The notes: generated by a model not told the origin, from the sequence alone. Shown: positions 7,834 through 63,958, numbered from the stretch's first letter. The stretch: DNA of 64,000 nucleotides from a virus (IMGVR_UViG_3300017913_001553:1-64000), one strand, 5' to 3'. Numbers and translations are program-made.

Positions 7834-8346
7834 ATGGCAAACGAAGAAAAAAAACTTTTTCCTTATATGGAATACTTTGATGAAAACTTTCCGTTTACTG
7901 GTAAAAAAAATCCAGATATTGAAAAATTAAAACTAGAGTGGATTGATCCTAATGATATTTTTGTGACACAAAGACAAAAAAATTCTTGGAACCCAGGAAA
8001 ACTTGAAAATATCTTACCAAATTTTTGTATTGGTAGACTTAAAAGTGTAAACATTGCTAGAATCATGGGTGTTAATATTTGTTGGAATGGGCAGCACACT
8101 ATCGCTTCATTATTGTGTAATGGTTGGGAAAAAGTACCATGTATGGTTTATGAATGTGAAGATATGAGATGGAGAGAAGAAACTGTAACATATATGCATT
8201 TTAGTCAACGACAAAGATCAGAAATCGCATTTGATTTGATTGAGGAGCTTGAAGAAGAACTTATGGAAACAAAAGGACATGGTATAGAGAGTTTTGAGCA
8301 CTTGATGGAAATACTTGAATTCACAAAAACAAAAAGACCAAAATAA
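7834..8346 (+). CDS. ParB/Srx-like domain protein (putative)
   Basis: WIDPNDIFV..RQ...NIARIMGVNICWNGQHT...GWEKVPCMV resembles the ParB N-terminal DGxHR fold. ATG 7834 follows a GAGG SD. Confidence 0.4.
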   Translation: MANEEKKLFPYMEYFDENFPFTGKKNPDIEKLKLEWIDPNDIFVTQRQKNSWNPGKLENILPNFCIGRLKSVNIARIMGVNICWNGQHTIASLLCNGWEKVPCMVYECEDMRWREETVTYMHFSQRQRSEIAFDLIEELEEELMETKGHGIESFEHLMEILEFTKTKRPK

Positions 8347-8382
8347 TAAATACATATATAATTATTTGAAAGATAAATTTAC

Positions 8383-8829
8383 ATGACATTTAGAAGAATT
8401 CAACATCCAAATCTTGTTACAACAAATACTTCCTTTGATGATCCAGTTATTGTTTTTGGTAAATCACAAACATCTGTTGATGATATTGGTTTTTTGGCCA
8501 AAAAGATCAACAATAACTATGCTGGATTAATTAGAGATAGTGATACAAATTCTTGGATTCTTATAGATAACTATACACAAGTTGATTTAAATTCAAACGA
8601 TATTGACGCAGATGATAATAGTCTTGTAAAGGGTACACTTGAAGTAGGTGGTATTAATATTGATACAAAATTTGTAGTTCCAGTGGGTACTACTGAAGAA
8701 AGACCATCACTTCCCACGATTGGTGAAATTAGATTTAATACAACTACAAGCGTTTTTGAAGGATATGATGGTACACAGTGGGTACAATTTATTCCAACTA
8801 CTTTACAAATAACAAACAATGATCCATAG
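8383..8829 (+). CDS. Small virion/tail-associated protein
   Basis: VPVGTTEERP...GEIRFNTTTSVFEGYDGTQW motif common in T4-like fibre/baseplate proteins; ATAAATA upstream. Confidence 0.55.
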   Translation: MTFRRIQHPNLVTTNTSFDDPVIVFGKSQTSVDDIGFLAKKINNNYAGLIRDSDTNSWILIDNYTQVDLNSNDIDADDNSLVKGTLEVGGINIDTKFVVPVGTTEERPSLPTIGEIRFNTTTSVFEGYDGTQWVQFIPTTLQITNNDP

Positions 8830-8880
8830 ATAATAAACTCTTTTGTAATAAATACATATATTACTAATGGAGAAATAAGA

Positions 8881-9921
8881 TTGGCATTTAAGGATTATTC
8901 AAAAGGTATTGAAAATGTACTCACATCAACCGTTGATGGAAGTGCTGAAATCAGATCAGAAAAAACGATTAGTTTATATCCGGGTTCAGATAGTCCACAA
9001 GGTGATCTTGGTGGAGAAAAACTTGTATGGATTAGAGATGGTGCTAAACTAGTATTTGAGGGAAGATATCCAGATGACTACGAGGCAAAACTTTATGTAG
9101 ATGAGTTAACTGAAGATAGAGAAATTACCTTACAGGATAAATCTGGTACTATTGCCTTATTGTCTGATCTAGAGAATATTGATTTAACATATACAAATCT
9201 TACACCAATGCCAAATGAAGTAGGTGGTTTGGAAATTGGAACAACTTTTGACAGTGTTTCATTTGAAGATATGTTTACATCCTTATTATATCCTTATCAA
9301 TACCCATCTTTTTCTAATTTTTATATTAGTGAACTACCAAGTACAATTTTAGAAGTTGGAGATTCTATTCCATCAGGCGACAAAACATTTGTGTGGTCTA
9401 CATTGAATAATTATAATATTGCTGATAGTAGTATTACAATAACAAATGGAAGTGATATTCTTGTTGAAAATATTGATAATGATGGATCAGAAGTTATTAA
9501 TTTTTCATCACCTATTACTAAAGCATCTAGTGGATACGAAACATTTAAGATAGTTGGTAATAACACAAAATCTCAGTCATTTGAAAGAAATTACTATGTA
9601 AATTGGAGATGGAAAACATATTATGGTACTAATTCATCTTCAACTATTAACGAATCAGATGTGAAAAATTTACAAAGTAAACAGTTGGAAAGTAATTTTT
9701 CAGGAAATAAATCATTTTCTGCTGGAGATTACAAATATATTGTTTATCCTGTGGTATTTGGGCAAAAATCATCATTCTTTGATCAATCAACAGGATTTGT
9801 AGTTGCTATGGAAGCACCATATATTATTGAAATTACAAATGATTATGGAATTTCTACTGATTATTATGTACACAGAACAACAAATACGATTGTCGGCACA
9901 ATCACTATTGGAGTAAGTTAA
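8881..9921 (+). CDS. Virion structural protein (TTG start)
   Basis: FEGRYPDDYEAKLYVDELTEDREITLQDKSGTIAL motif of large-myovirus structural proteins; beta-rich C-terminus; late promoter and GGAG SD upstream. Confidence 0.5.
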   Translation: MAFKDYSKGIENVLTSTVDGSAEIRSEKTISLYPGSDSPQGDLGGEKLVWIRDGAKLVFEGRYPDDYEAKLYVDELTEDREITLQDKSGTIALLSDLENIDLTYTNLTPMPNEVGGLEIGTTFDSVSFEDMFTSLLYPYQYPSFSNFYISELPSTILEVGDSIPSGDKTFVWSTLNNYNIADSSITITNGSDILVENIDNDGSEVINFSSPITKASSGYETFKIVGNNTKSQSFERNYYVNWRWKTYYGTNSSSTINESDVKNLQSKQLESNFSGNKSFSAGDYKYIVYPVVFGQKSSFFDQSTGFVVAMEAPYIIEITNDYGISTDYYVHRTTNTIVGTITIGVS

Positions 9922-9922
9922 T

Positions 9923-12900
9923 ATGGCACAAATTCCTGGCGCAGTAAATTTAACAGGTATGATAGCACCTACGGATTCGCAAGATGTATATCCAACCCAC
10001 TCCAGTGAATATGGATTGGGCGGTTACAGAGAAGTAGTAGATCAGACAGAACGTGATTCTATACCCCTTCAACGTAGAACGTATGGAATGATGGTATTTC
10101 AACAAAGTGACGGAAAGATTTATCAACTTGGCAGTGGACTTACAAATTCGGATTGGAGTGAGTTTGTATTAACATCAACAACAGATGATCTAGTAGAAGG
10201 TTCAACTAATCTTTACTATACAGATGCGCGTGTGCAAACAGTTATAGATAATAATACATCAGGATTTTTAACTTCTTATACAGAAACAGACCCCATCTTT
10301 AGTGCAAGCGATGCGGCAAGTATTACTTCGACTGATATATCAAATTGGAAAACAGCACATGGATGGGGAGATCATGGGGTAGAGGGATATGCTACAGAAA
10401 CATATGTCAATACGCAAGTTGCTAATTTAGTTGATACTGCACCAGCAGCACTAGATACCTTAAATGAACTAGCAGCAGCACTTGGCGATGACCCTAATTT
10501 TGCCACAACTGTAACAAATAATATTGCTACAAAAGTAAGTAAATCTGGTGATACTATGACAGGTCCTTTGGTTCTTAGTGGACCACCCACACTTGGTTCA
10601 CATGCGATTACGAAGGATTATGTAGATTCTGCTGTTAATAGTGTCTCTAGTACAGTTAATTCTCTTGTAACAGATGATATTTCAGAAGGATCAATTAATT
10701 TATGGTATACAGATGCCAGAGTTGATGCACGAATTCCAACAAAACTTTCAGATTTTACAAACGATGTTGGTTACTTGACAAGTGAAACTGATAGTCAAAC
10801 ACTAACATTCAATAGTCCTAATTTGACCATCAGTAATGGCAACAGCGTAGATTTATCAGCATTGTTGGACGATACAAATACAACGTATAGTGCAGGTAGT
10901 GGTCTTAATTTAACTGGAACTGAATTTAGTATTGATAATACAGTAGCATTAAAAACTGAATTATTCAGTGGAGATTACTCAGATTTAACAAATATTCCAA
11001 GTGATCTAGTGACAGTCTTTGATTTGGAGCAATATCTTGGAGATAGTTCTATTGATGGTACAATTGGAAATACAGTAATTTCTAGAATTAATAGATCATT
11101 GGACTATGCTAAAGATTATACAGATGATGAAATTGCAGCAATCGTAATACCAACAAACATTAGTTCATTTACAAATGACAGTGGATATATTACAGGATAT
11201 ACAGAAACTGACCCAACTGTTCCTTCTCATGTAAAATCGATAACAACTACTGAAAAGTCTAATTGGAATACGGCATTTGGATGGGGAGATCACTCAACCC
11301 AAGGTTATCTAACAAGTGAAACTGATCCTATCTTTGCAGCAAGTGATGCTGCGAGTATTACTTCTATTGATATTGGAAATTGGAATACTGCGTATGGATG
11401 GGGAGATCATAGTGTAGAAGGATATGCTACTGAAACATATGTTAATACAGCGGTAGCAAATGTTATTGATACTGCGCCCACTACATTGGATACCTTAAAT
11501 GAATTGGCAGCAGCACTTGGTGATGACCCTAACTTTGCTACAACCATTACTAATGCTATTGCCACAAAAGCAGATTCTGTAGATTTAAATACAAAAGTTT
11601 CTAAATCTGGCGATACAATGACAGGTGGACTTACTTTTGGTAATAATAACAAACTTACACTTGGTGGATTTAATGCATTACAATTGTATGCTACAGGAAC
11701 CAACAGTTTAGTTTTTAACAATATTGGTGATCTTTATTTCTATAATAATGTTGATGATCGTAGTATTATTTTTAGAACAGATAATGGTAGTGGTGGGACA
11801 GCAAACTATATTATTGCTAATGGCGCAACTGGTAGTGTTGAACTTACACATTATGGCACAGAAAAATTTAAAACTACATCTAGTGGTGGCGAATTGTCTG
11901 GAAACTTAGTATTATCGGCAGCACCCACAGCGAATGATCACGCAGTTAGAAAAGATTATGTAGATAACGCATTAAGTAGTGTAAGCACAGCGGTTGGAAA
12001 TCTAGATACAGATGATGTTCCAGAAGGAACAAGTAATCTATATTATACAGATGAACGTTCAAGAGAATCAATTTCGGTTAGTGGGTCTCTAGGATATAAC
12101 AGTAATACTGGTGTTATATCATATACTCAACCAACAAATGTGAGCGCATTTACAAATGACAGTGGATACTTAACATCTTATACAGAAACAGACCCAACTG
12201 TTCCTTCTCATGTAAAATCGATAACAACTACTGAAAAGTCTAATTGGAATACGGCATTTGGATGGGGAGATCACTCAACCCAAGGATACTTAACATCTTA
12301 TACAGAAACAGACCCTATTTTTACAGCAAGTGATGCTGCGAGTATTACTTCTATTGATATTGGAAATTGGAATACTGCGTATGGATGGGGAGATCATTCA
12401 ACTCAAGGATACTTAACATCTTATACAGAAACAGACCCAACTGTTCCTTCTCATGTAAAATCGATAACAACTACTGAAAAGTCTAATTGGAATACGGCAT
12501 TTGGATGGGGAGATCACTCAACCCAAGGATATCTAACAAGTGAAACTGATAGTCAAACACTAACATTTAATAGTCCAAACCTGAGTATTAGTAATGGTAA
12601 CACTGTTGATCTATCAGCACTATTAGACGATACGGATACAAATACATACCTACAATCACTTGGTTTTAATCTACAAAATGGCGTATTAACAGCAACATTA
12701 AATGATTCTTCGACTGTAACAGTTGATCTAGATGGTAGATATTCAACAACAGACACAACATATTCCCAAGCAACAAGCACAACACTTGGATTGGTAAAAG
12801 TTGGATATTCTGAAAATGGTAAAAATTATCCAGTAGAACTTTCAAACGGTCAAATGTTTGTAAATGTTCCTTGGACTGATACAAATACTGATACAGACAA

Positions 12901-59256: not shown

Positions 59257-59558
59257 TGCCAGCAGTAAGTCGCAAATCAGACAGTTTAAGTACAGGTCAC
59301 GGTTGTGATGGATCAACTATTCTTGCGACACCTGCACAGGGTACTGTTTATGCTAATGGCAGATTGGTTGCCAGAATTACTGATAAAACAATTGTACACG
59401 CTATTCCAAGTGGTCCAGCGTGTGTACCACACACCGAACAAGTACGTGCGGGTAGTGGAACAGTATATACCGAAGGACTAAAAACAGCACGTATTGGCGA
59501 TGCCGCAGATGGTGGTAATATGACGAGTGGTTCGCCAAATGTTTATGCGGGCGGTTAA
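59256..59558 (+). CDS. PAAR-repeat spike tip protein
   Basis: MPAVSRKSD..GH, VYANG..AR..D...H, GSGTVY.EG..ARIGD, GSPNVYAG. Confidence 0.88.
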   Translation: MPAVSRKSDSLSTGHGCDGSTILATPAQGTVYANGRLVARITDKTIVHAIPSGPACVPHTEQVRAGSGTVYTEGLKTARIGDAADGGNMTSGSPNVYAGG

Positions 59559-59566
59559 AAAATATA

Positions 59567-59595
59567 TTGACAATCGTGATTTTATTTGTTATAAA
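59567..59595 (+). promoter_or_regulatory. Strong sigma70-type promoter for the tRNA/enzyme operon
   Basis: TTGACA-N17-TATAAA with TG extension; an ATAAATA late motif follows at about 59598. Confidence 0.8.
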
Positions 59596-59622
59596 AGATA
59601 AATAAACATGGTAGTTAATAAT

Positions 59623-59698
59623 GCTCCTATAGCTCAGTTGGTAGAGCAACTGATTTGTAATCAGTAGGTCCGCGGTTCGAGTCCGTGTGGGAGCACCA
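59623..59698 (+). tRNA. tRNA-Thr(UGU) with encoded CCA
   Basis: Acceptor GCTCCTA/TGGGAGC, D arm GCTC-AGTTGGTA-GAGC, anticodon arm ACTGA-TTTGTAA-TCAGT, GGTTCGAGT T loop. Confidence 0.97.
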
Positions 59699-59702
59699 TT
59701 AT

Positions 59703-59787
59703 GCGGTTGTGGTGGAATTGGTAGACACGCTAGATTTAGGTTCTAGTGCTTCACGGCGTGAGAGTTCGAGTCTCTCCAACCGCACCA
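59703..59787 (+). tRNA. tRNA-Leu(UAG), long variable arm, encoded CCA
   Basis: GCGGTTG/CAACCGC acceptor, GGAATTGGTAGACAC D arm, CTAGA-TTTAGGT-TCTAG anticodon arm. Confidence 0.97.
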
Positions 59788-59856
59788 AATTATAAAAAAT
59801 ATTATATAGTACATTTTAATTAGTGGACGTTACGATTAGGAAATTTTAATAATTGC

Positions 59857-59894
59857 GTAGGTTGCAAGACCCTATCATTTGGTAAAAAACTTGC
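59857..59894 (+). ncRNA. H-type pseudoknot resembling a preQ1-I riboswitch aptamer
   Basis: P1 GTAGG/CCTAT, loop TTGCAAGAC, 3' tail TAAAAAACTTGC. GCAAG (59864-68) pairs with CTTGC (59890-94). Confidence 0.5.
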
Positions 59895-59897
59895 TTT

Positions 59898-59973
59898 GGG
59901 GAATTAGCTCAGTTGGGAGAGCGTCTGATTTGCATTCAGAAGGTCATCGGTTCGATCCCGGTATTCTCCACCA
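59898..59973 (+). tRNA. tRNA-Ala(UGC) with encoded CCA
   Basis: GGGGAAT/ATTCTCC acceptor with the G3:U70 Ala determinant; TCTGA-TTTGCAT-TCAGA anticodon arm. Confidence 0.97.
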
Positions 59974-59992
59974 TTTCACTCTGGAGACCTAA

Positions 59993-60934
59993 ATGAATTA
60001 TTTTGAACTACAACCAGAGGAAAACACTTTTCTCAATATCGTTGTAGATTTGACACACAAGTGCAATATGGAATGTGCTAACTGCTATATTCCAAATAGA
60101 GATATCCCTGATCTAGATAAAGATCGTTTAGAGGATTTCTTGACACGACTTCCGTTTAGAACATATATTAGATTGATTGGTGCTGAACCAACCATGCGTG
60201 ATGATTTGCCAGAAATTATTGCCATGGTTAAGCGGTTAGGGCATCGTCCTAGTCTAACAACAAACGGACTTAAATTGGCACATATGCCGTATACGCAGAG
60301 TCTTAAAGATGTTGGATTGCGTCTAATGCTTCACAGTATGAATGGGGCAGACGATGATGAAGCATATAAAGTATTAGATATGGGTAAATGGGCAGAAGTA
60401 AAAACACGTGCTCTGGATAATATCTTGGCATGTCGTCTACCTATCAATACAGGGACAATTATCGCACGTGATGTAAATGAGCACTGTGTTCGTCGTCAGG
60501 TAGAAGTATTCGAAAAGTATTGTCTAAAGAATGATATCAACCTAGATACAACAGCACCTTACAATAGAATTACGCCAGTGTTGCGTATGAAAAGTGTCGG
60601 CAGTCTTGGTCGTAATATGGGGAGTGATTTGGCATTGGGTATTTCTGAATTGGCAGAAATCGCATCAGAAGAATTTAGCATTCCAATTGATGAAATTATC
60701 GCAAGTAAAGTTAGCGCAGGTGTTGTAAAAGCAGGCAACTATGGCGAAGCATTAACTAGTTTAATGTTTCCAGTTCATACAGCAGCAGGTAAACTTTTTA
60801 TCCGTTTAATTGATTGGAGTGTAAACGACGAGGGTGTTATTGATCATGATAACCCTAATCGTGGTAGATTAACACAAGACTTTAAAGTAGCACCATTTTT
60901 TGAACACGTTAAGAGGAATGAGTTTGGGTATTGA
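59993..60934 (+). CDS. MoaA-like radical SAM enzyme lacking auxiliary-cluster cysteines
   Basis: DLTHKCNMECANCY, IRLIGAEP, LTTNG; C-terminal DNPNRGRLTQD where MoaA has CxxCxRxRLxxD. Confidence 0.8.
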   Translation: MNYFELQPEENTFLNIVVDLTHKCNMECANCYIPNRDIPDLDKDRLEDFLTRLPFRTYIRLIGAEPTMRDDLPEIIAMVKRLGHRPSLTTNGLKLAHMPYTQSLKDVGLRLMLHSMNGADDDEAYKVLDMGKWAEVKTRALDNILACRLPINTGTIIARDVNEHCVRRQVEVFEKYCLKNDINLDTTAPYNRITPVLRMKSVGSLGRNMGSDLALGISELAEIASEEFSIPIDEIIASKVSAGVVKAGNYGEALTSLMFPVHTAAGKLFIRLIDWSVNDEGVIDHDNPNRGRLTQDFKVAPFFEHVKRNEFGY

Positions 60935-61523
60935 GGTTTATACAGCAACACACAAGGATGCTGATTTTAAAGATTATTGTGCGGCAATAGATAGGTTCCA
61001 TTTACATTTAGAGAAACATGGAACTAATGATAAACTTATTGAAAATTATCGTCCAAAAAGATTACAGTCACGTGATAGTATTGGAATCACTGTTTACTTG
61101 GATGATGGAGCATTATTGGGATTTAGCACAGTAATCACACGTGATATTTTTGGCAATGGGACACGTGTATTAAATCGCTTTGTAAAATCTCCAGTGTATA
61201 GATTTGAAAATGAACGCCGTAGAGTTAGTCAAGAAACAAAAGATATGATACAGCAACAATTAACGATTAGTCGTGAATTAGGGTTTGACTATTCGTTTAT
61301 GAGCCGTTATACTACTACAAATACAAGTAATTTTGACCATTATGGAAAACAGTTAACATTTGCTGAGTGGAAGAACGAACCGGGAAGATACTGCGTAACT
61401 GAAAACTTTCATCATAAAACAAGTTACCAGCATCTTATCTGGACTAGTTTTAATGATAATGTAAAAGAATTACCTATGTATTGGATAAGTGATGGAGAGT
61501 TCAATGAACTTGAAGAATTGTAA
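60918..61523 (+). CDS. GNAT-fold protein (putative acyl/aminoacyl transferase)
   Basis: ITVYLDDGALLGFS hairpin, VLNRFVKSPVYR motif-A-like strand, MIQQQLTISRELGFDYSFM helix-strand. Confidence 0.5.
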   Translation: MSLGIEVYTATHKDADFKDYCAAIDRFHLHLEKHGTNDKLIENYRPKRLQSRDSIGITVYLDDGALLGFSTVITRDIFGNGTRVLNRFVKSPVYRFENERRRVSQETKDMIQQQLTISRELGFDYSFMSRYTTTNTSNFDHYGKQLTFAEWKNEPGRYCVTENFHHKTSYQHLIWTSFNDNVKELPMYWISDGEFNELEEL

Positions 61524-62349
61524 GTTTGGATATATGATTGAAGATTTAGACTTCAATGACTATGATCCAAAAGAGATATTAAATTTAGTCGGTGATGGAC
61601 GTTTCGTTGTTATTAGAAACAATGAAAGGGTATTGCCATCGCAAATGGTAAAGTTATATAAAGAATTAGGTACAGTAGTATCCCAAAATGAAAAAGTAGA
61701 AAGTGCAGGAGTAGATGGGTTCCGTGAGTTGGTTAAGGTTCGTAGTAATGGTATGTTTACTGGTAACGATGATGGTGAGCTTGAATATCATTGCGCAGGG
61801 ATGAGTCGCACAGGTGGCGAGGATATCGTTGCAATGTATATGTATGACAAAGGAATAAGTGGTGGTATAACATATTATACAGATTCACAAACGGCATTTG
61901 ACGATTTGAGTGATGATGTAAAAGATTTGTGTAGAAAAGTAAATAGCAAAATATTAACATACAGCAAGAAAACAAAACTTGAAGGTAGTTACTACAAAAA
62001 GATTTTTAATGATGAACAGACCATGATGGAATTTCGTGATCCTGATGGTGAAAAAGTTTTTTTCAAGCAAACCCCACGAAAACAATTAGTGATTGAACAT
62101 CCAATTAATGGAAAAGAGGGATTATATTTCCCATGGAGTGTGATTAGAGGATTTACTGGGTTGGACCCACAGGAACAAAAAGATTTATACAGTCATTTAA
62201 AACAGCATACACTAAAAGAAAAATATGTGTATGCTCATGAATGGCAAAATAACGATATTATATTGAGTGATCAGCATCATAGTTTGCATAGACGTGATGC
62301 CTATGAAGGTGATCGTGAACTTTGGAGAGCAGGAATATGGTTGAATTAG
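61504..62349 (+). CDS. TauD/TfdA-family Fe(II)/2OG enzyme with H-X-A metal site (putative halogenase)
   Basis: YHCAG in place of WHxD, GGITYYTD, HPING, YAHEWQNNDIILSDQHHSLHRR...DRELWR. Confidence 0.75.
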   Translation: MNLKNCKFGYMIEDLDFNDYDPKEILNLVGDGRFVVIRNNERVLPSQMVKLYKELGTVVSQNEKVESAGVDGFRELVKVRSNGMFTGNDDGELEYHCAGMSRTGGEDIVAMYMYDKGISGGITYYTDSQTAFDDLSDDVKDLCRKVNSKILTYSKKTKLEGSYYKKIFNDEQTMMEFRDPDGEKVFFKQTPRKQLVIEHPINGKEGLYFPWSVIRGFTGLDPQEQKDLYSHLKQHTLKEKYVYAHEWQNNDIILSDQHHSLHRRDAYEGDRELWRAGIWLN

Positions 62350-63035
62350 AATACGGTGAAATTGATAATATCAATATTCGTGAACAATTATTAGAGCATG
62401 GATTATTAGTAATCCGCAATGCTGATATCTCTATGGATGAATTTAAAGAACGTGTGACATCTATGGGTAAACCACTGGTTACAACAAAGCATGTGTTGGA
62501 TGATGATCGTGTTGTTCAAGAATTAAGTGAAAATGGTTTGTTTAGTAACAATGATGTGGATTGGCACAATGATTGGAGTTACGGTAGAGGTAATTATTTT
62601 GGAACTGCCTTGCGAAATGTAGAAGGTGGTGAACTAAGTGAAACACATTTTTGTGATATGACAAAAATTCCACAAAGTATTATGCGTATGTACGAGGGCA
62701 AGGTAGGAAAATATTATCCACCGCAATCATTACATGATGTCTGCTTTACTGAAAAACAGTTACGAATTTTGGAAAAGCAAAAAGTAGAGCGTCCAATAGT
62801 TATGGATCATCCAATTACTGGAACGCCTCTTGTATTCTGTAGTCCTGGAACAATACAAAATGATGATATTGACTTGATGCCAATTATTCTTTATGCAGAT
62901 GTAGATGCGTATAATTACAAACACAAATGGAAACCAAATGATATTCTTATTTGGGACAATTATAGAATGATGCACAGACGTATGGCATTTGAAGGACACC
63001 GACTATTGTGGAGAATTCAATTCACATTAGAATAA
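62337..63035 (+). CDS. TauD/TfdA-family Fe(II)/2OG dioxygenase (canonical HxD)
   Basis: GLLVIRN, DWHND, ETHFCD, HPITG, HKWKPNDILIWDNYRMMHRR...RLLWR. Confidence 0.88.
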   Translation: MVELEYGEIDNINIREQLLEHGLLVIRNADISMDEFKERVTSMGKPLVTTKHVLDDDRVVQELSENGLFSNNDVDWHNDWSYGRGNYFGTALRNVEGGELSETHFCDMTKIPQSIMRMYEGKVGKYYPPQSLHDVCFTEKQLRILEKQKVERPIVMDHPITGTPLVFCSPGTIQNDDIDLMPIILYADVDAYNYKHKWKPNDILIWDNYRMMHRRMAFEGHRLLWRIQFTLE

Positions 63036-63427: not shown

Positions 63428-63958
63428 ATGTTTAAGAAATTCGCAATCACAGCAACTGCTATTATGATCACGTCAGCGGCAGCAGCACAATCAACTGCTT
63501 ATGCTACAATTACAAAAGTAGTCCCTAATTACACAAACGGTGGAACAACTCAACAAGCATATCAGAGTTGTGAAATTGTTAGTGTGCCAGTTACTCGCAC
63601 AGAAACTGTTCGTGAAGGCGGCAGTTCGGGTGAGGGAGCATTGGCAGGAATGATTATCGGTGGTATTCTTGGTAAAGGAGTATCTGGTAACGATAAAGGT
63701 GCGGCAGCAGGTGCTGTAATTGGTGGCATTATTGGTGCTGATAAAGGCGGTAATGGTCGTACAGTTGAGCGCAATGTGACACGATATGAAGATCGTGAAG
63801 TGTGTACGACAAAATATCGTACAGTCCATGGATCACGCCAGATCAAAAATTATAAGATTACCTATGAATGGGCTGGTGTAACTGGAACAAGTTATACTTA
63901 TAATTCATATAATGTAGGTGATCAGATTCCGGTAACTGTTTCTATTAACGCAAAGTAA
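63428..63958 (+). CDS. Exported glycine-zipper (2TM) protein
   Basis: Signal peptide MFKKFAITATAIMITSAAAA; GALAGMIIGGILG...GAAAGAVIGGIIG zipper; YKITYEW..G beta domain. Confidence 0.8.
   Translation: MFKKFAITATAIMITSAAAAQSTAYATITKVVPNYTNGGTTQQAYQSCEIVSVPVTRTETVREGGSSGEGALAGMIIGGILGKGVSGNDKGAAAGAVIGGIIGADKGGNGRTVERNVTRYEDREVCTTKYRTVHGSRQIKNYKITYEWAGVTGTSYTYNSYNVGDQIPVTVSINAK

What the first reader, a model, noticed from the sequence alone, without database searches (positions are those of the whole stretch)
59567..63035. Candidate new system: a tRNA-linked phage biosynthetic operon (radical SAM + GNAT + two TauD-like Fe/2OG enzymes)
Seen in sequence: one strong sigma70 promoter precedes three tRNAs, and 19 nt after the last CCA come four overlapping genes with no intervening terminator. 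The genes are a MoaA-like radical SAM, a GNAT-fold protein, a TauD-like H-X-A enzyme and a TauD-like HxD enzyme. Established knowledge: this enzyme mix is typical of secondary-metabolite or nucleoside tailoring clusters, whereas known phage DNA-modifying dioxygenases are mostly TET/JBP-type. Inference: the phage makes an oxidised, acylated and possibly halogenated nucleotide or small molecule. Possible uses are modifying its DNA or tRNAs against nucleases, antagonising nucleotide-signalling defences, or signalling. The upstream preQ1-like RNA and the retained MoaA arginines both point to a guanine-derived substrate.
Basis: partly seen in the sequence, partly recalled or inferred. Interest (0 to 1): 0.9.

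Follow-up and report, generated by a model that had tools for sequence, protein, structure and literature searches.

The report
Phage radical-SAM, oxygenase, acyltransferase cassette
A marine jumbo-phage fragment carries a real four-gene enzyme cassette that is inherited as a unit, whose relatives in phages and bacteria sit with oxygen-dependent iron enzymes and acyl-transfer proteins, so it more likely tailors and attaches an acyl group than makes a guanine-derived nucleoside; its product is unknown.

Summary
Three tRNAs are followed, 19 nt after the last CCA, by four overlapping genes: a radical SAM, a GNAT-fold protein with no Pfam family, a TauD with His-x-Ala, and a TauD with His-x-Asp.

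The cassette is co-inherited. All 19 IMG/VR viral contigs whose TauD1 homolog is at least 48% identical keep the same four genes in the same order, with H-[S/C]-A invariant.

- The tRNA linkage is not conserved.
- No preQ1 riboswitch is detected.
- The 'MoaA arginines' have no significant sequence support. The enzyme lacks MoaA's auxiliary-cluster cysteines, and its best structural match is the lipid-coupling enzyme GDGT-MAS.

Across 82 distinct loci of the radical SAM family, 72 have an O2-dependent iron oxygenase within three genes. These are TauD, AspH-like cupin (sometimes fused to the radical SAM), membrane desaturase-like or heme-oxygenase-like enzymes. 38 loci have an acyl-transfer part: this GNAT family, classical GNAT, HlyC, MBOAT or ACP.

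The nearest cellular relatives lie in RTX/type I secretion operons. The same phage record also carries two desaturase-like genes, a B12 radical SAM and an SDR downstream.

Best reading (confidence about 0.4): an acyl-chain tailoring and transfer module. Earlier notes of this scan concern this same genome only.

The parts
59567..59595 (+). sigma-70-like promoter match TTGACA-17 nt-TATAAA, 27 nt upstream of tRNA-Thr
   Evidence: Read from the sequence. It is a consensus match only: such sites are not enriched over shuffles in this region.
59623..59698 (+). tRNA-Thr (UGU)
   Evidence: ARAGORN; Rfam tRNA 73 bits.
59703..59787 (+). tRNA-Leu (UAG)
   Evidence: ARAGORN; Rfam tRNA 58 bits.
59898..59973 (+). 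tRNA-Ala (UGC). The neighbourhood with the cassette is specific to this phage and not conserved.
   Evidence: ARAGORN; Rfam 66 bits. Related cassettes have no tRNA directly upstream.
59993..60934 (+). Radical SAM enzyme of 313 aa. It has a single CX3CX2C cluster (C24, C28, C31), no auxiliary-cluster cysteines, and an invariant C-terminal R-G-R...H..E motif. This is the constant core of the system.
   Evidence: PF04055 at 44 bits. Family alignment invariants. AF2 model pLDDT 81. Best structural matches are GDGT-MAS Z 23.1 and MoaA Z 19.6. 938 homologs, mostly marine and viral.
60918..61523 (+). ORF2, a GNAT-fold protein of about 201-207 aa from an unannotated family. The likely start is ATG 60918; the longest ORF runs from TTG 60900. 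It is the presumed acyl or aminoacyl transferase.
   Evidence: No Pfam, NCBIfam or PHROG hit. AF2 pLDDT 85. GNAT matches: Foldseek E 1e-6; VIA Z 11.0, with FeeM at 10.1 and AHL synthases at 9.6/8.8 in the tie. 610 clusters found by HMM search, and none of the 10 members scanned has a Pfam family.
61504..62349 (+). TauD1, a TauD/TfdA-family Fe/2OG enzyme with H-C-A in place of H-x-D. The distal His and the 2OG Arg are kept. The likely start is ATG 61504 after GGAG; the longest ORF runs from GTG 61489.
   Evidence: PF02668 at 88 bits. H-[S/C]-A is invariant in all orthologs. WHSD of TfdA aligns to WHSA.
62337..63035 (+). TauD2, a TauD/TfdA-family Fe/2OG oxygenase with the canonical H-N-D...H...R. 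The likely start is ATG 62337 after GGAGAG; the longest ORF runs from TTG 62322.
   Evidence: PF02668 at 85 bits. Triad conserved. The nearest solved relatives are TfdA, ScoE/Rv0097 and TauD.

Best explanation
The four genes form a self-contained module for tailoring and transferring an acyl group. It belongs to a wider, undescribed system whose constant core is this radical SAM enzyme. That core works with an O2-dependent iron oxygenase and an acyl-transfer protein.

Proposed mechanism (inferred, not shown):
1. The radical SAM enzyme abstracts a hydrogen from an unactivated carbon of a fatty-acyl or similar chain carried on ACP or CoA.
2. TauD2 hydroxylates the chain.
3. The two-His TauD1 carries out a second oxidation or a halogenation.
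4. The GNAT-fold ORF2 transfers the tailored acyl group to an amine acceptor, which could be an amino acid, a lipid head group or a protein lysine.

In the infected cell this would remodel an envelope lipid or lipidate a protein. The desaturase-like, B12 radical SAM, SDR and amino-acid dehydrogenase genes 2.5-7.5 kb further downstream in the same phage record probably belong to the same pathway. The three tRNAs upstream are ordinary phage tRNAs that happen to be adjacent here.
For: Shown:
- Co-inheritance. All 19 IMG/VR viral contigs with TauD1 at 48% identity or more carry rSAM-ORF2-TauD1-TauD2 in order. The flanks differ.
- Neighbourhood of the radical SAM family. Of 82 distinct loci, 72 have an oxygenase within three genes: TauD, AspH-like cupin PF05118, FA_desaturase PF00487 or heme-oxygenase-like PF14518. 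38 have ORF2, GNAT PF00583, HlyC PF02794, MBOAT PF03062 or ACP PF00550.
- AspH-radical SAM fusion proteins exist (L088 confirmed by Pfam; the others called by length).
- The radical SAM tree tracks the oxygenase type (18 changes against 48 in shuffles). It places the window in a clade of SH-aLRT 100 with Geminicoccaceae loci arranged RTX-rSAM-TauD-GNAT/HlyC-HlyB-HlyD.
- The best structural match of the radical SAM is the lipid-tail-coupling GDGT-MAS, with Z 23.1 over 287 residues and profile E 3e-23.
- The ORF2 fold ties with the acyl-ACP-using FeeM and with AHL synthases. By my reading of the alignment, it lacks a Q/RxxGxG/A CoA loop.
- The same record holds two desaturase-like genes with HRxxxH/HxxHH/HxxHH boxes. 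They are homologous to the desaturases that flank the radical SAM elsewhere. B12 radical SAM and SDR homologs also recur near the cassette.

Inferred: the substrate class, the order of the steps and the acceptor.
Against: - No substrate or product is shown, and everything about chemistry rests on association and fold.
- The TauD family mostly acts on small polar molecules.
- A solo TauD1-like gene (H-N-A) sits beside DNA polymerase B and sugar-nucleotide genes in L133.
- Basic residues conserved in the family (R60, R198, R290, R292) could bind a nucleotide triphosphate as in MoaA, or equally CoA or ACP.
- The 72-kb record has no ACP, AspH or HlyC homolog, but the record is only about 20% of the genome.
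- 44 of the 82 loci show no recognised acyl-transfer gene within three genes.
Confidence: 0.4

Rival explanations
1. Protein or peptide maturation system. The radical SAM enzyme and the oxygenases modify residues of a secreted or structural protein, and the GNAT/HlyC-type enzyme acylates a lysine. This would be a variant of RTX-toxin activation or of RiPP tailoring. The phage would use it on a virion or effector protein.
For: The window's radical SAM clade includes loci arranged RTX-rSAM-TauD-GNAT-HlyB(C39)-HlyD and rSAM-TauD-HlyC. RTX proteins or type I secretion parts lie within 8 kb in L032, L034, L036, L049, L056, L079 and L088. HlyC-family enzymes are known only as acyl-ACP:protein-lysine acyltransferases (established knowledge). 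AspH-family enzymes hydroxylate protein residues (PMC10915816).
Against: No RTX-repeat protein is present in the 64-kb window or in any phage locus. Membrane desaturase-like partners and ACP in other branches fit a lipid-type substrate better than a residue. No precursor gene is conserved beside the phage cassette.
Confidence: 0.25
2. One reading: a nucleotide- or nucleoside-derived product, from guanine or another NTP, that is oxidised, possibly halogenated and acylated. It would modify DNA or tRNA, or counter nucleotide-signalling defences.
For: Fold and profile similarity to MoaA (E 7e-21; Z 19.6) and more distantly to viperins (Z about 16). The invariant R-G-R lies at a position compatible with MoaA R266/R268 by the aligned ranges (model 12-310 to chain 12-285). 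TauD-family enzymes acting on nucleotides are known (own knowledge: LipL/Cpz15). A solo TauD1-like gene sits beside DNA polymerase and sugar-nucleotide genes. The cassette is adjacent to ribonucleotide reductase and tRNAs in this window.
Against: There are no auxiliary-cluster cysteines and no GG tail. MoaA R17 is a Val here. The C-terminal similarity is no better than shuffles, and hhalign stops at residue 184. MoaA and viperin NCBIfam scores are far below their cut-offs. No preQ1 RNA is detected. The tRNA and RNR adjacency is not conserved. Among the neighbours that received a family label in the radical SAM loci, none is a nucleotide-metabolism gene, whereas acyl-transfer genes are frequent.
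Confidence: 0.15
3. Free amino-acid tailoring. TauD1 halogenates and TauD2 hydroxylates an amino acid, as in the Bes or SyrB2 logic. The radical SAM enzyme rearranges it and ORF2 N-acylates it, giving a small diffusible N-acyl amino acid.
For: The H-x-A site keeps its distal His and Arg in all orthologs. Heme-oxygenase-like oxidases accompany the radical SAM in another branch, as BesC does in the Bes pathway (own knowledge). An amino-acid dehydrogenase lies downstream in the record. ORF2 ties structurally with the N-acyl amino acid synthase FeeM.
Against: A PDB profile search with TauD1 finds only hydroxylase-type relatives and no halogenase. A two-His site can belong to a hydroxylase (PMC13168262). 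This model overlaps with the best explanation and differs only in what is tailored.
Confidence: 0.12

Closest known systems
MoaA (GTP 3',8-cyclase)
   Same: The radical SAM core with CX3CX2C. Profile similarity over residues 15-230 (E 7e-21). Whole-chain fold match Z 19.6. A C-terminal beta-hairpin carries an R-x-R-like motif.
   Different: No auxiliary [4Fe-4S] cysteines and no C-terminal GG motif. R17 is replaced by Val. NCBIfam scores are 53-56 bits against cut-offs of 231-325. It never sits with moaB/C/D/E in the loci examined.
GDGT-MAS / Tes (archaeal tetraether lipid synthase)
   Same: The best structural match (Z 23.1, 287 aligned residues) and the best sequence match in the PDB. It acts on unactivated lipid-tail carbons, which fits the acyl context found here.
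   Different: About 200 residues shorter and without its additional clusters. NCBIfam Tes scores 52 bits against a cut-off of 450.
hlyCABD-type RTX toxin activation (HlyC acyl-ACP:lysine acyltransferase)
   Same: The nearest cellular relatives of the phage radical SAM and TauD genes sit in RTX-...-HlyC/GNAT-HlyB-HlyD operons. The logic is an acyltransferase next to its target and exporter.
   Different: Classical operons have no radical SAM or Fe/2OG enzyme. The phage has ORF2 in place of HlyC, and no RTX protein or exporter was found.
Fe/2OG halogenases (SyrB2, BesD, WelO5 types)
   Same: The carboxylate ligand of the facial triad is replaced by Ala, while the distal His and the 2OG Arg are kept.
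   Different: TauD1 has a TauD/TfdA-family scaffold. The known halogenases I recall belong to other Fe/2OG subfamilies (own knowledge). None appears in the PDB profile search. The chloride pocket cannot be assessed.
ACP-linked acyl tailoring pathways (JamABC alkyne formation; ScoA-E isonitrile lipopeptides)
   Same: A membrane desaturase-like enzyme plus a dedicated ACP, or a TauD-family enzyme (ScoE) acting on a fatty-acyl derivative. ScoE/Rv0097 are among the nearest solved relatives of TauD2.
   Different: Those pathways contain no radical SAM enzyme. The similarity to ScoE is at family level only (19 bits against a cut-off of 400).

Membership tests
MoaA (GTP 3',8-cyclase) | N-terminal CX3CX2C radical SAM cluster | tested here: met
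   C24, C28 and C31 are invariant.
MoaA (GTP 3',8-cyclase) | C-terminal auxiliary [4Fe-4S] cluster bound by three Cys, which coordinates GTP N1 (PMC12625886) | tested here: not met
   No conserved Cys outside the CX3CX2C in 19 family members.
MoaA (GTP 3',8-cyclase) | Arg17, Arg266 and Arg268 of the GTP site, and the C-terminal GG motif (PMC12625886) | tested here: inconclusive
   The position of R17 is Val. The protein ends ...NEFGY, so there is no GG. R290-G-R292 is invariant and positionally compatible by structure ranges, but it is not supported by sequence statistics.
MoaA (GTP 3',8-cyclase) | Score above the NCBIfam equivalog cut-off | tested here: not met
   53-56 bits against cut-offs of 231-325.
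GNAT superfamily | GNAT alpha/beta fold | tested here: met
   AF2 pLDDT 85. More than 300 GNAT chains at Foldseek E <= 1e-3. VIA Z 11.0 over 152 residues.
GNAT superfamily | Q/R-x-x-G-x-G/A pyrophosphate-binding loop, and a sequence-family match | tested here: not met
   By my reading, the motif is absent between beta4 and alpha3 in the alignment. No Pfam hit for 11 members at E <= 0.1.
TauD/TfdA Fe/2OG dioxygenases (PF02668) | Pfam score above the gathering threshold | tested here: met
   88 and 85 bits against a threshold of 27.
TauD/TfdA Fe/2OG dioxygenases (PF02668) | His-x-Asp...His facial triad and the 2OG-binding Arg | tested here: met
   TauD2 has H-N-D, a distal H and R. For TauD1 this feature is NOT met: it has H-C-A.
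Fe/2OG halogenases | The carboxylate ligand replaced by Ala or Gly, with the two His kept | tested here: met
   H-[S/C]-A is present in every ortholog in the four-gene cassettes, and the distal His and Arg are invariant.
Fe/2OG halogenases | Halide binding and C-halogen bond formation; homology to a proven halogenase | not testable with these tools
   No halogenase appears among the PDB profile hits, which is inconclusive. Two-His hydroxylases exist (PMC13168262).
preQ1-I riboswitch | Match to the Rfam covariance model | tested here: not met
   No preQ1 family is listed at E <= 10 in 59400-60100. The spacer fold has z 0.82.
RTX toxin-activating acyltransferase system | HlyC-family acyltransferase (PF02794) together with an RTX substrate and a type I exporter | tested here: not met
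   Met in the bacterial relatives L032 and L034-L037. In the phage, ORF2 has no HlyC match, and the window has no GGxGxD-repeat protein.
Membrane diiron desaturase/hydroxylase family (downstream genes of the record) | Three His boxes and hydrophobic segments | tested here: met
   HRHLSH/HKEHH/HTEHH and HRYFTH/HIKHH/HTDHH, with TM-like N-terminal segments. PF00487 at 38 bits against a threshold of 29.7.

The most novel reading that the evidence does not exclude
The radical SAM enzyme, its iron oxygenase and its acyltransferase would form a previously unrecognised, widespread maturation system. The system would install a new, oxidised and possibly halogenated lipid-type modification on proteins: on secreted RTX proteins in Alphaproteobacteria, and on a virion or effector protein in marine jumbo phages. 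TauD1 would then be the first halogenase built on the TauD/TfdA scaffold.
Probability: 0.12. Interest if true: 0.85.

Novelty: new variant of a known kind. Interest (0 to 1): 0.62.

Why it matters
If the reading is right, marine jumbo phages carry a complete module that makes or attaches a tailored acyl group during infection. No such module has been described among phage auxiliary functions, as far as my searches reach.

The comparative result stands apart from the phage. One radical SAM family, with 938 homologs at E <= 1e-5, is almost always paired with an O2-dependent iron oxygenase of one of four unrelated folds. In some loci the two are even fused. The pair often comes with an acyltransferase, and in one branch it sits inside RTX/type I secretion operons.

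This gives three concrete, testable entry points to new enzymology:
- an oxygen-sensitive radical SAM enzyme working with oxygenases;
- a GNAT-fold family of about 600 clusters with no annotation;
- a strictly conserved two-His TauD enzyme.

It also hints at an unknown maturation step for RTX proteins.

Tried and rejected
- Deposited phage genomes. Megablast found only the tRNAs. tblastn with the radical SAM and TauD1 gave 3 and 1 weak hits.
- Literature. Five full-text searches ran (a sixth was rejected for a bad term). None found a paper on this gene combination.
- preQ1 riboswitch: rejected.
- C-terminal homology to MoaA by sequence. hhalign aligns residues 14-184 only. Local alignment of the C-termini scores no better than shuffles. 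MAFFT placed the MoaA CxxCNRxR differently from the motif resemblance.
- ORF2 family assignment. Pfam, NCBIfam and PHROGs gave nothing. The word-indexed search with the profile was swamped. hhalign of ORF2 against the GNAT, HlyC and c16 clusters was negative.
- Unknown partners (c16/c11/c92, c20, c21, c39, c9, c14). No family was found. The Atlas look-alikes are unnamed viral clusters.
- Co-transcription. One metatranscriptome holds only contigs over the tRNAs and over 60728-61297, about 5% diverged, so from a relative. Nothing bridges tRNA-Ala to the radical SAM gene. These are contigs, so strand and transcript ends cannot be read. No conclusion is drawn.
- Complex prediction (radical SAM + ORF2). 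The machine was unreachable in six tries, so it was not run.
- The fold search 'atlas' library was unavailable.
- Homologs of AspH, ACP, c16, c20, c21 and c39 in the 72-kb record: none found. The record is about 20% of the genome, so this is no evidence of absence.
- A wobble-uridine tRNA-modification idea. All three tRNAs have U34, and Elp3 is a radical SAM + GNAT enzyme. I dropped it because the tRNA adjacency is not conserved and nothing else supports it.

Full report
**What is there.** The window is the first 64 kb of a 72-kb IMG/VR virus record. CheckV rates the record about 20% complete, so the genome is probably a jumbo phage of roughly 350 kb. Relatives of the cassette lie on viral contigs of up to 376 kb. 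ARAGORN and Rfam find tRNA-Thr(UGU), tRNA-Leu(UAG) and tRNA-Ala(UGC) at 59623-59973. The consensus-like TTGACA-17-TATAAA lies at 59567-59595. Nineteen bases after the CCA of tRNA-Ala, behind a GGAG, the first of four overlapping genes starts.

From Shine-Dalgarno spacing, the likely starts of the other three genes are ATG 60918, ATG 61504 and ATG 62337. These give overlaps of 17, 20 and 13 nt. No terminator-like hairpin lies within the block. A 93-nt AT-rich spacer with promoter-like hexamers separates it from the next gene. Promoter-like matches are no more frequent here than in shuffled sequence, so the 'strong promoter' is only a consensus match.

**The four proteins.**
- Gene 1 is a radical SAM enzyme (PF04055) with a single CX3CX2C and no other conserved cysteine.
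- Gene 2 has no hit in Pfam, NCBIfam or PHROGs. With ten homologs as the alignment it folds confidently (pLDDT 85) into a GNAT fold. Foldseek gives E 1e-6 and VIA-align gives Z 11.0. The N-acyl amino acid synthase FeeM (Z 10.1) and AHL synthases (Z 9.6 and 8.8) fall within the tie. By my reading of the alignment, it lacks the Q/RxxGxG/A CoA loop. An exhaustive HMM search finds 610 clusters of this family, and none of the ten members scanned has a Pfam domain.
- Genes 3 and 4 are both TauD/TfdA-family enzymes (88 and 85 bits). TauD2 has H-N-D, the distal His and the Arg. TauD1 has H-C-A at the same place, and the WHSD of TfdA aligns to WHSA.

**Co-inheritance.** Searching IMG/VR with the radical SAM enzyme gave 28 loci. 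Searching with TauD1 gave 23. All 19 contigs whose TauD1 is at least 48% identical carry rSAM-ORF2-TauD1-TauD2 in that order, with H-[S/C]-A invariant. The genes on either side differ from contig to contig. The cassette therefore moves and is kept as a unit. Most of these contigs add three unknown genes and a small AspH-like cupin downstream. Those genes are absent from this record. Seawater metagenomes from at least two studies hold the stretch.

**What is not supported.**
- None of the related four-gene loci scanned has a tRNA directly upstream. The tRNA adjacency is therefore a feature of this phage, not of the system.
- Rfam finds no preQ1 riboswitch, even at E <= 10, and the spacer folds no better than shuffles.
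- The enzyme is MoaA-like in its core (profile E 7e-21). However, it lacks the three cysteines of the auxiliary cluster, which in MoaA coordinates guanine N1, and it lacks the GG tail (PMC12625886).
- MoaA Arg17 corresponds to Val.
- hhalign against E. coli MoaA stops at residue 184, and the C-terminal parts align no better than shuffles.
- The invariant R290-G-R292 sits on a predicted beta-hairpin at a position compatible with MoaA R266/R268 by the aligned ranges. That is a resemblance, not a demonstrated homology.
- NCBIfam scores for MoaA, Tes, TrsS and viperin are all far below their cut-offs.
- By structure, the best match is the lipid-tail-coupling enzyme GDGT-MAS: Z 23.1 over 287 residues, against 19.6 over 254 for MoaA.

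**Context of the family.** I collected 80 further loci from prokaryotic genomes and clustered all neighbours. Of 82 distinct radical SAM loci, 72 have an O2-dependent iron oxygenase within three genes. This is TauD, an AspH-like cupin (PF05118), a membrane FA_desaturase-family protein (PF00487) or a heme-oxygenase-like, CADD-like protein (PF14518). In several bacteria the cupin and the radical SAM enzyme appear as one polypeptide. L088 is confirmed by Pfam, and the others are called by length.

Thirty-eight loci also have an acyl-transfer component. These are the ORF2 family, a classical GNAT (PF00583), HlyC (PF02794), MBOAT with a GDSL-like protein, or an acyl carrier protein. A further unknown family of about 200 residues (c16/c92/c11) recurs in phage and Bdellovibrionales loci.

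The radical SAM tree follows the oxygenase type: 18 label changes against 48 in shuffles. Relatedness inflates such clustering. The tree places the window in a clade with SH-aLRT 100. That clade contains the phage cassettes and Geminicoccaceae/Rhodospirillales loci arranged RTX protein - rSAM - TauD - GNAT or HlyC - HlyB-type exporter - HlyD. This is the quick tree, because the careful search did not finish.

**The rest of the record.** Just beyond the window's end the same strand encodes the following genes:
- a Glu/Leu/Phe/Val-type dehydrogenase;
- a 613-residue B12-binding radical SAM methyltransferase-like protein;
- two membrane desaturase-like proteins with HRxxxH/HxxHH/HxxHH boxes;
- an SDR.

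The two desaturase-like proteins are homologs of the family that flanks the radical SAM enzyme in other phages and in Bdellovibrionales. Homologs of the B12 radical SAM protein and the SDR also recur near the cassette elsewhere. The functional unit therefore probably extends beyond the reported coordinates.

**Interpretation.** All four oxygenase families have members that act on fatty-acyl chains: LpxO/OlsC, the desaturases, UndA and ScoE (established knowledge). All the transfer components handle acyl groups. The closest structure of the core enzyme is a lipid enzyme. The most economical reading is therefore an acyl-chain tailoring and transfer module (confidence about 0.4). The acceptor is undetermined and could be an amine-bearing lipid, an amino acid or a protein lysine.

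The RTX-operon relatives keep a protein-maturation reading alive (0.25). The nucleotide model retains some weight (0.15), for three reasons. The conserved arginines could bind a triphosphate. A solo TauD1-like gene sits among DNA polymerase and sugar-nucleotide genes. TauD enzymes acting on nucleotides exist.

The strictly conserved two-His site of TauD1 is compatible with halogenation. But AspH shows that two-His Fe/2OG enzymes can be hydroxylases (PMC10915816, PMC13168262), and a Bdellovibrionales relative has H-T-N instead.

**Novelty and verdict.** I found no description of this gene combination in the paper library. The family is almost absent from deposited phage genomes. The parts belong to known superfamilies, so I class it as a new variant of a known kind: a phage-borne tailoring cassette. 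The partnership between a radical SAM enzyme and oxygenases is uncharacterised and widely distributed. Interest is moderate to high (0.62).

Noticed in passing
Beyond the window: record positions 65572-70568 (L112:2573-7569): A second enzyme block on the same strand. It holds an ELFV-type amino-acid dehydrogenase, a 613-aa B12-binding radical SAM (KedN5-like, 135 bits, below cut-off), two membrane desaturase-like genes with three His boxes, and an SDR. The desaturases, the B12 radical SAM and the SDR have homologs next to the radical SAM cassette in other loci.
   Followed up: partly
L088:7350-8861; also L087, L089, L096, L104: Single polypeptides that join an AspH-like cupin to the radical SAM enzyme, found in Alphaproteobacteria and Acidobacteriota. 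L088 is confirmed by Pfam; the others are called from length and cluster membership.
   Followed up: partly
L032:5517-13925; L034-L037: Geminicoccaceae/Rhodospirillales operons arranged RTX protein - radical SAM - TauD - GNAT or HlyC - C39-type ABC exporter - HlyD. This suggests an undescribed extra maturation step for an RTX protein.
   Followed up: partly
L082, L090, L100, L105, L107, L110 (about 8000-12200 in each): In Caulobacteraceae, Erythrobacteraceae and some Gammaproteobacteria the radical SAM enzyme is followed by a CADD-like heme-oxygenase-like protein, an MBOAT and a GDSL-like protein. This resembles AlgI/AlgJ or DltB/DltD-type surface-polymer acylation sets.
   Followed up: no
L133:4959-5840 and L134:4965-5858: A more distant TauD1-like gene with H-N-A but no radical SAM within 5 kb. 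It overlaps the end of a family B DNA polymerase gene and is followed by cytidylyltransferase-like, phosphomannomutase and epimerase/dehydratase genes.
   Followed up: partly
L040:6778-7737: A Bdellovibrionales chromosome has a TauD1-like enzyme with H-T-N as the only TauD, next to the radical SAM enzyme and an ORF2-family protein. A Schlafen/AlbA_2-domain protein follows.
   Followed up: no
window 63428-63958: A 176-aa protein with a signal-peptide-like N-terminus and a glycine-zipper region (weak matches to Gly-zipper_Omp and YiaD-like families), directly after the cassette.
   Followed up: no
window 59639-59747: In a seawater metatranscriptome, a 109-nt contig with one mismatch spans the tRNA-Thr/tRNA-Leu junction. 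This is compatible with an unprocessed dimeric precursor, or with DNA carry-over.
   Followed up: no
L005:1199-1599: ARAGORN calls a permuted tmRNA-like gene (tag AKPEIRLAA) about 4.4 kb upstream of the cassette on a related viral contig.
   Followed up: no
L020:1072-3245: An array of ten tRNA genes on the opposite strand, about 1.1 kb upstream of a type-B cassette (radical SAM - desaturase - ACP - unknown). This shows that tRNA neighbourhoods near this family are variable.
   Followed up: no
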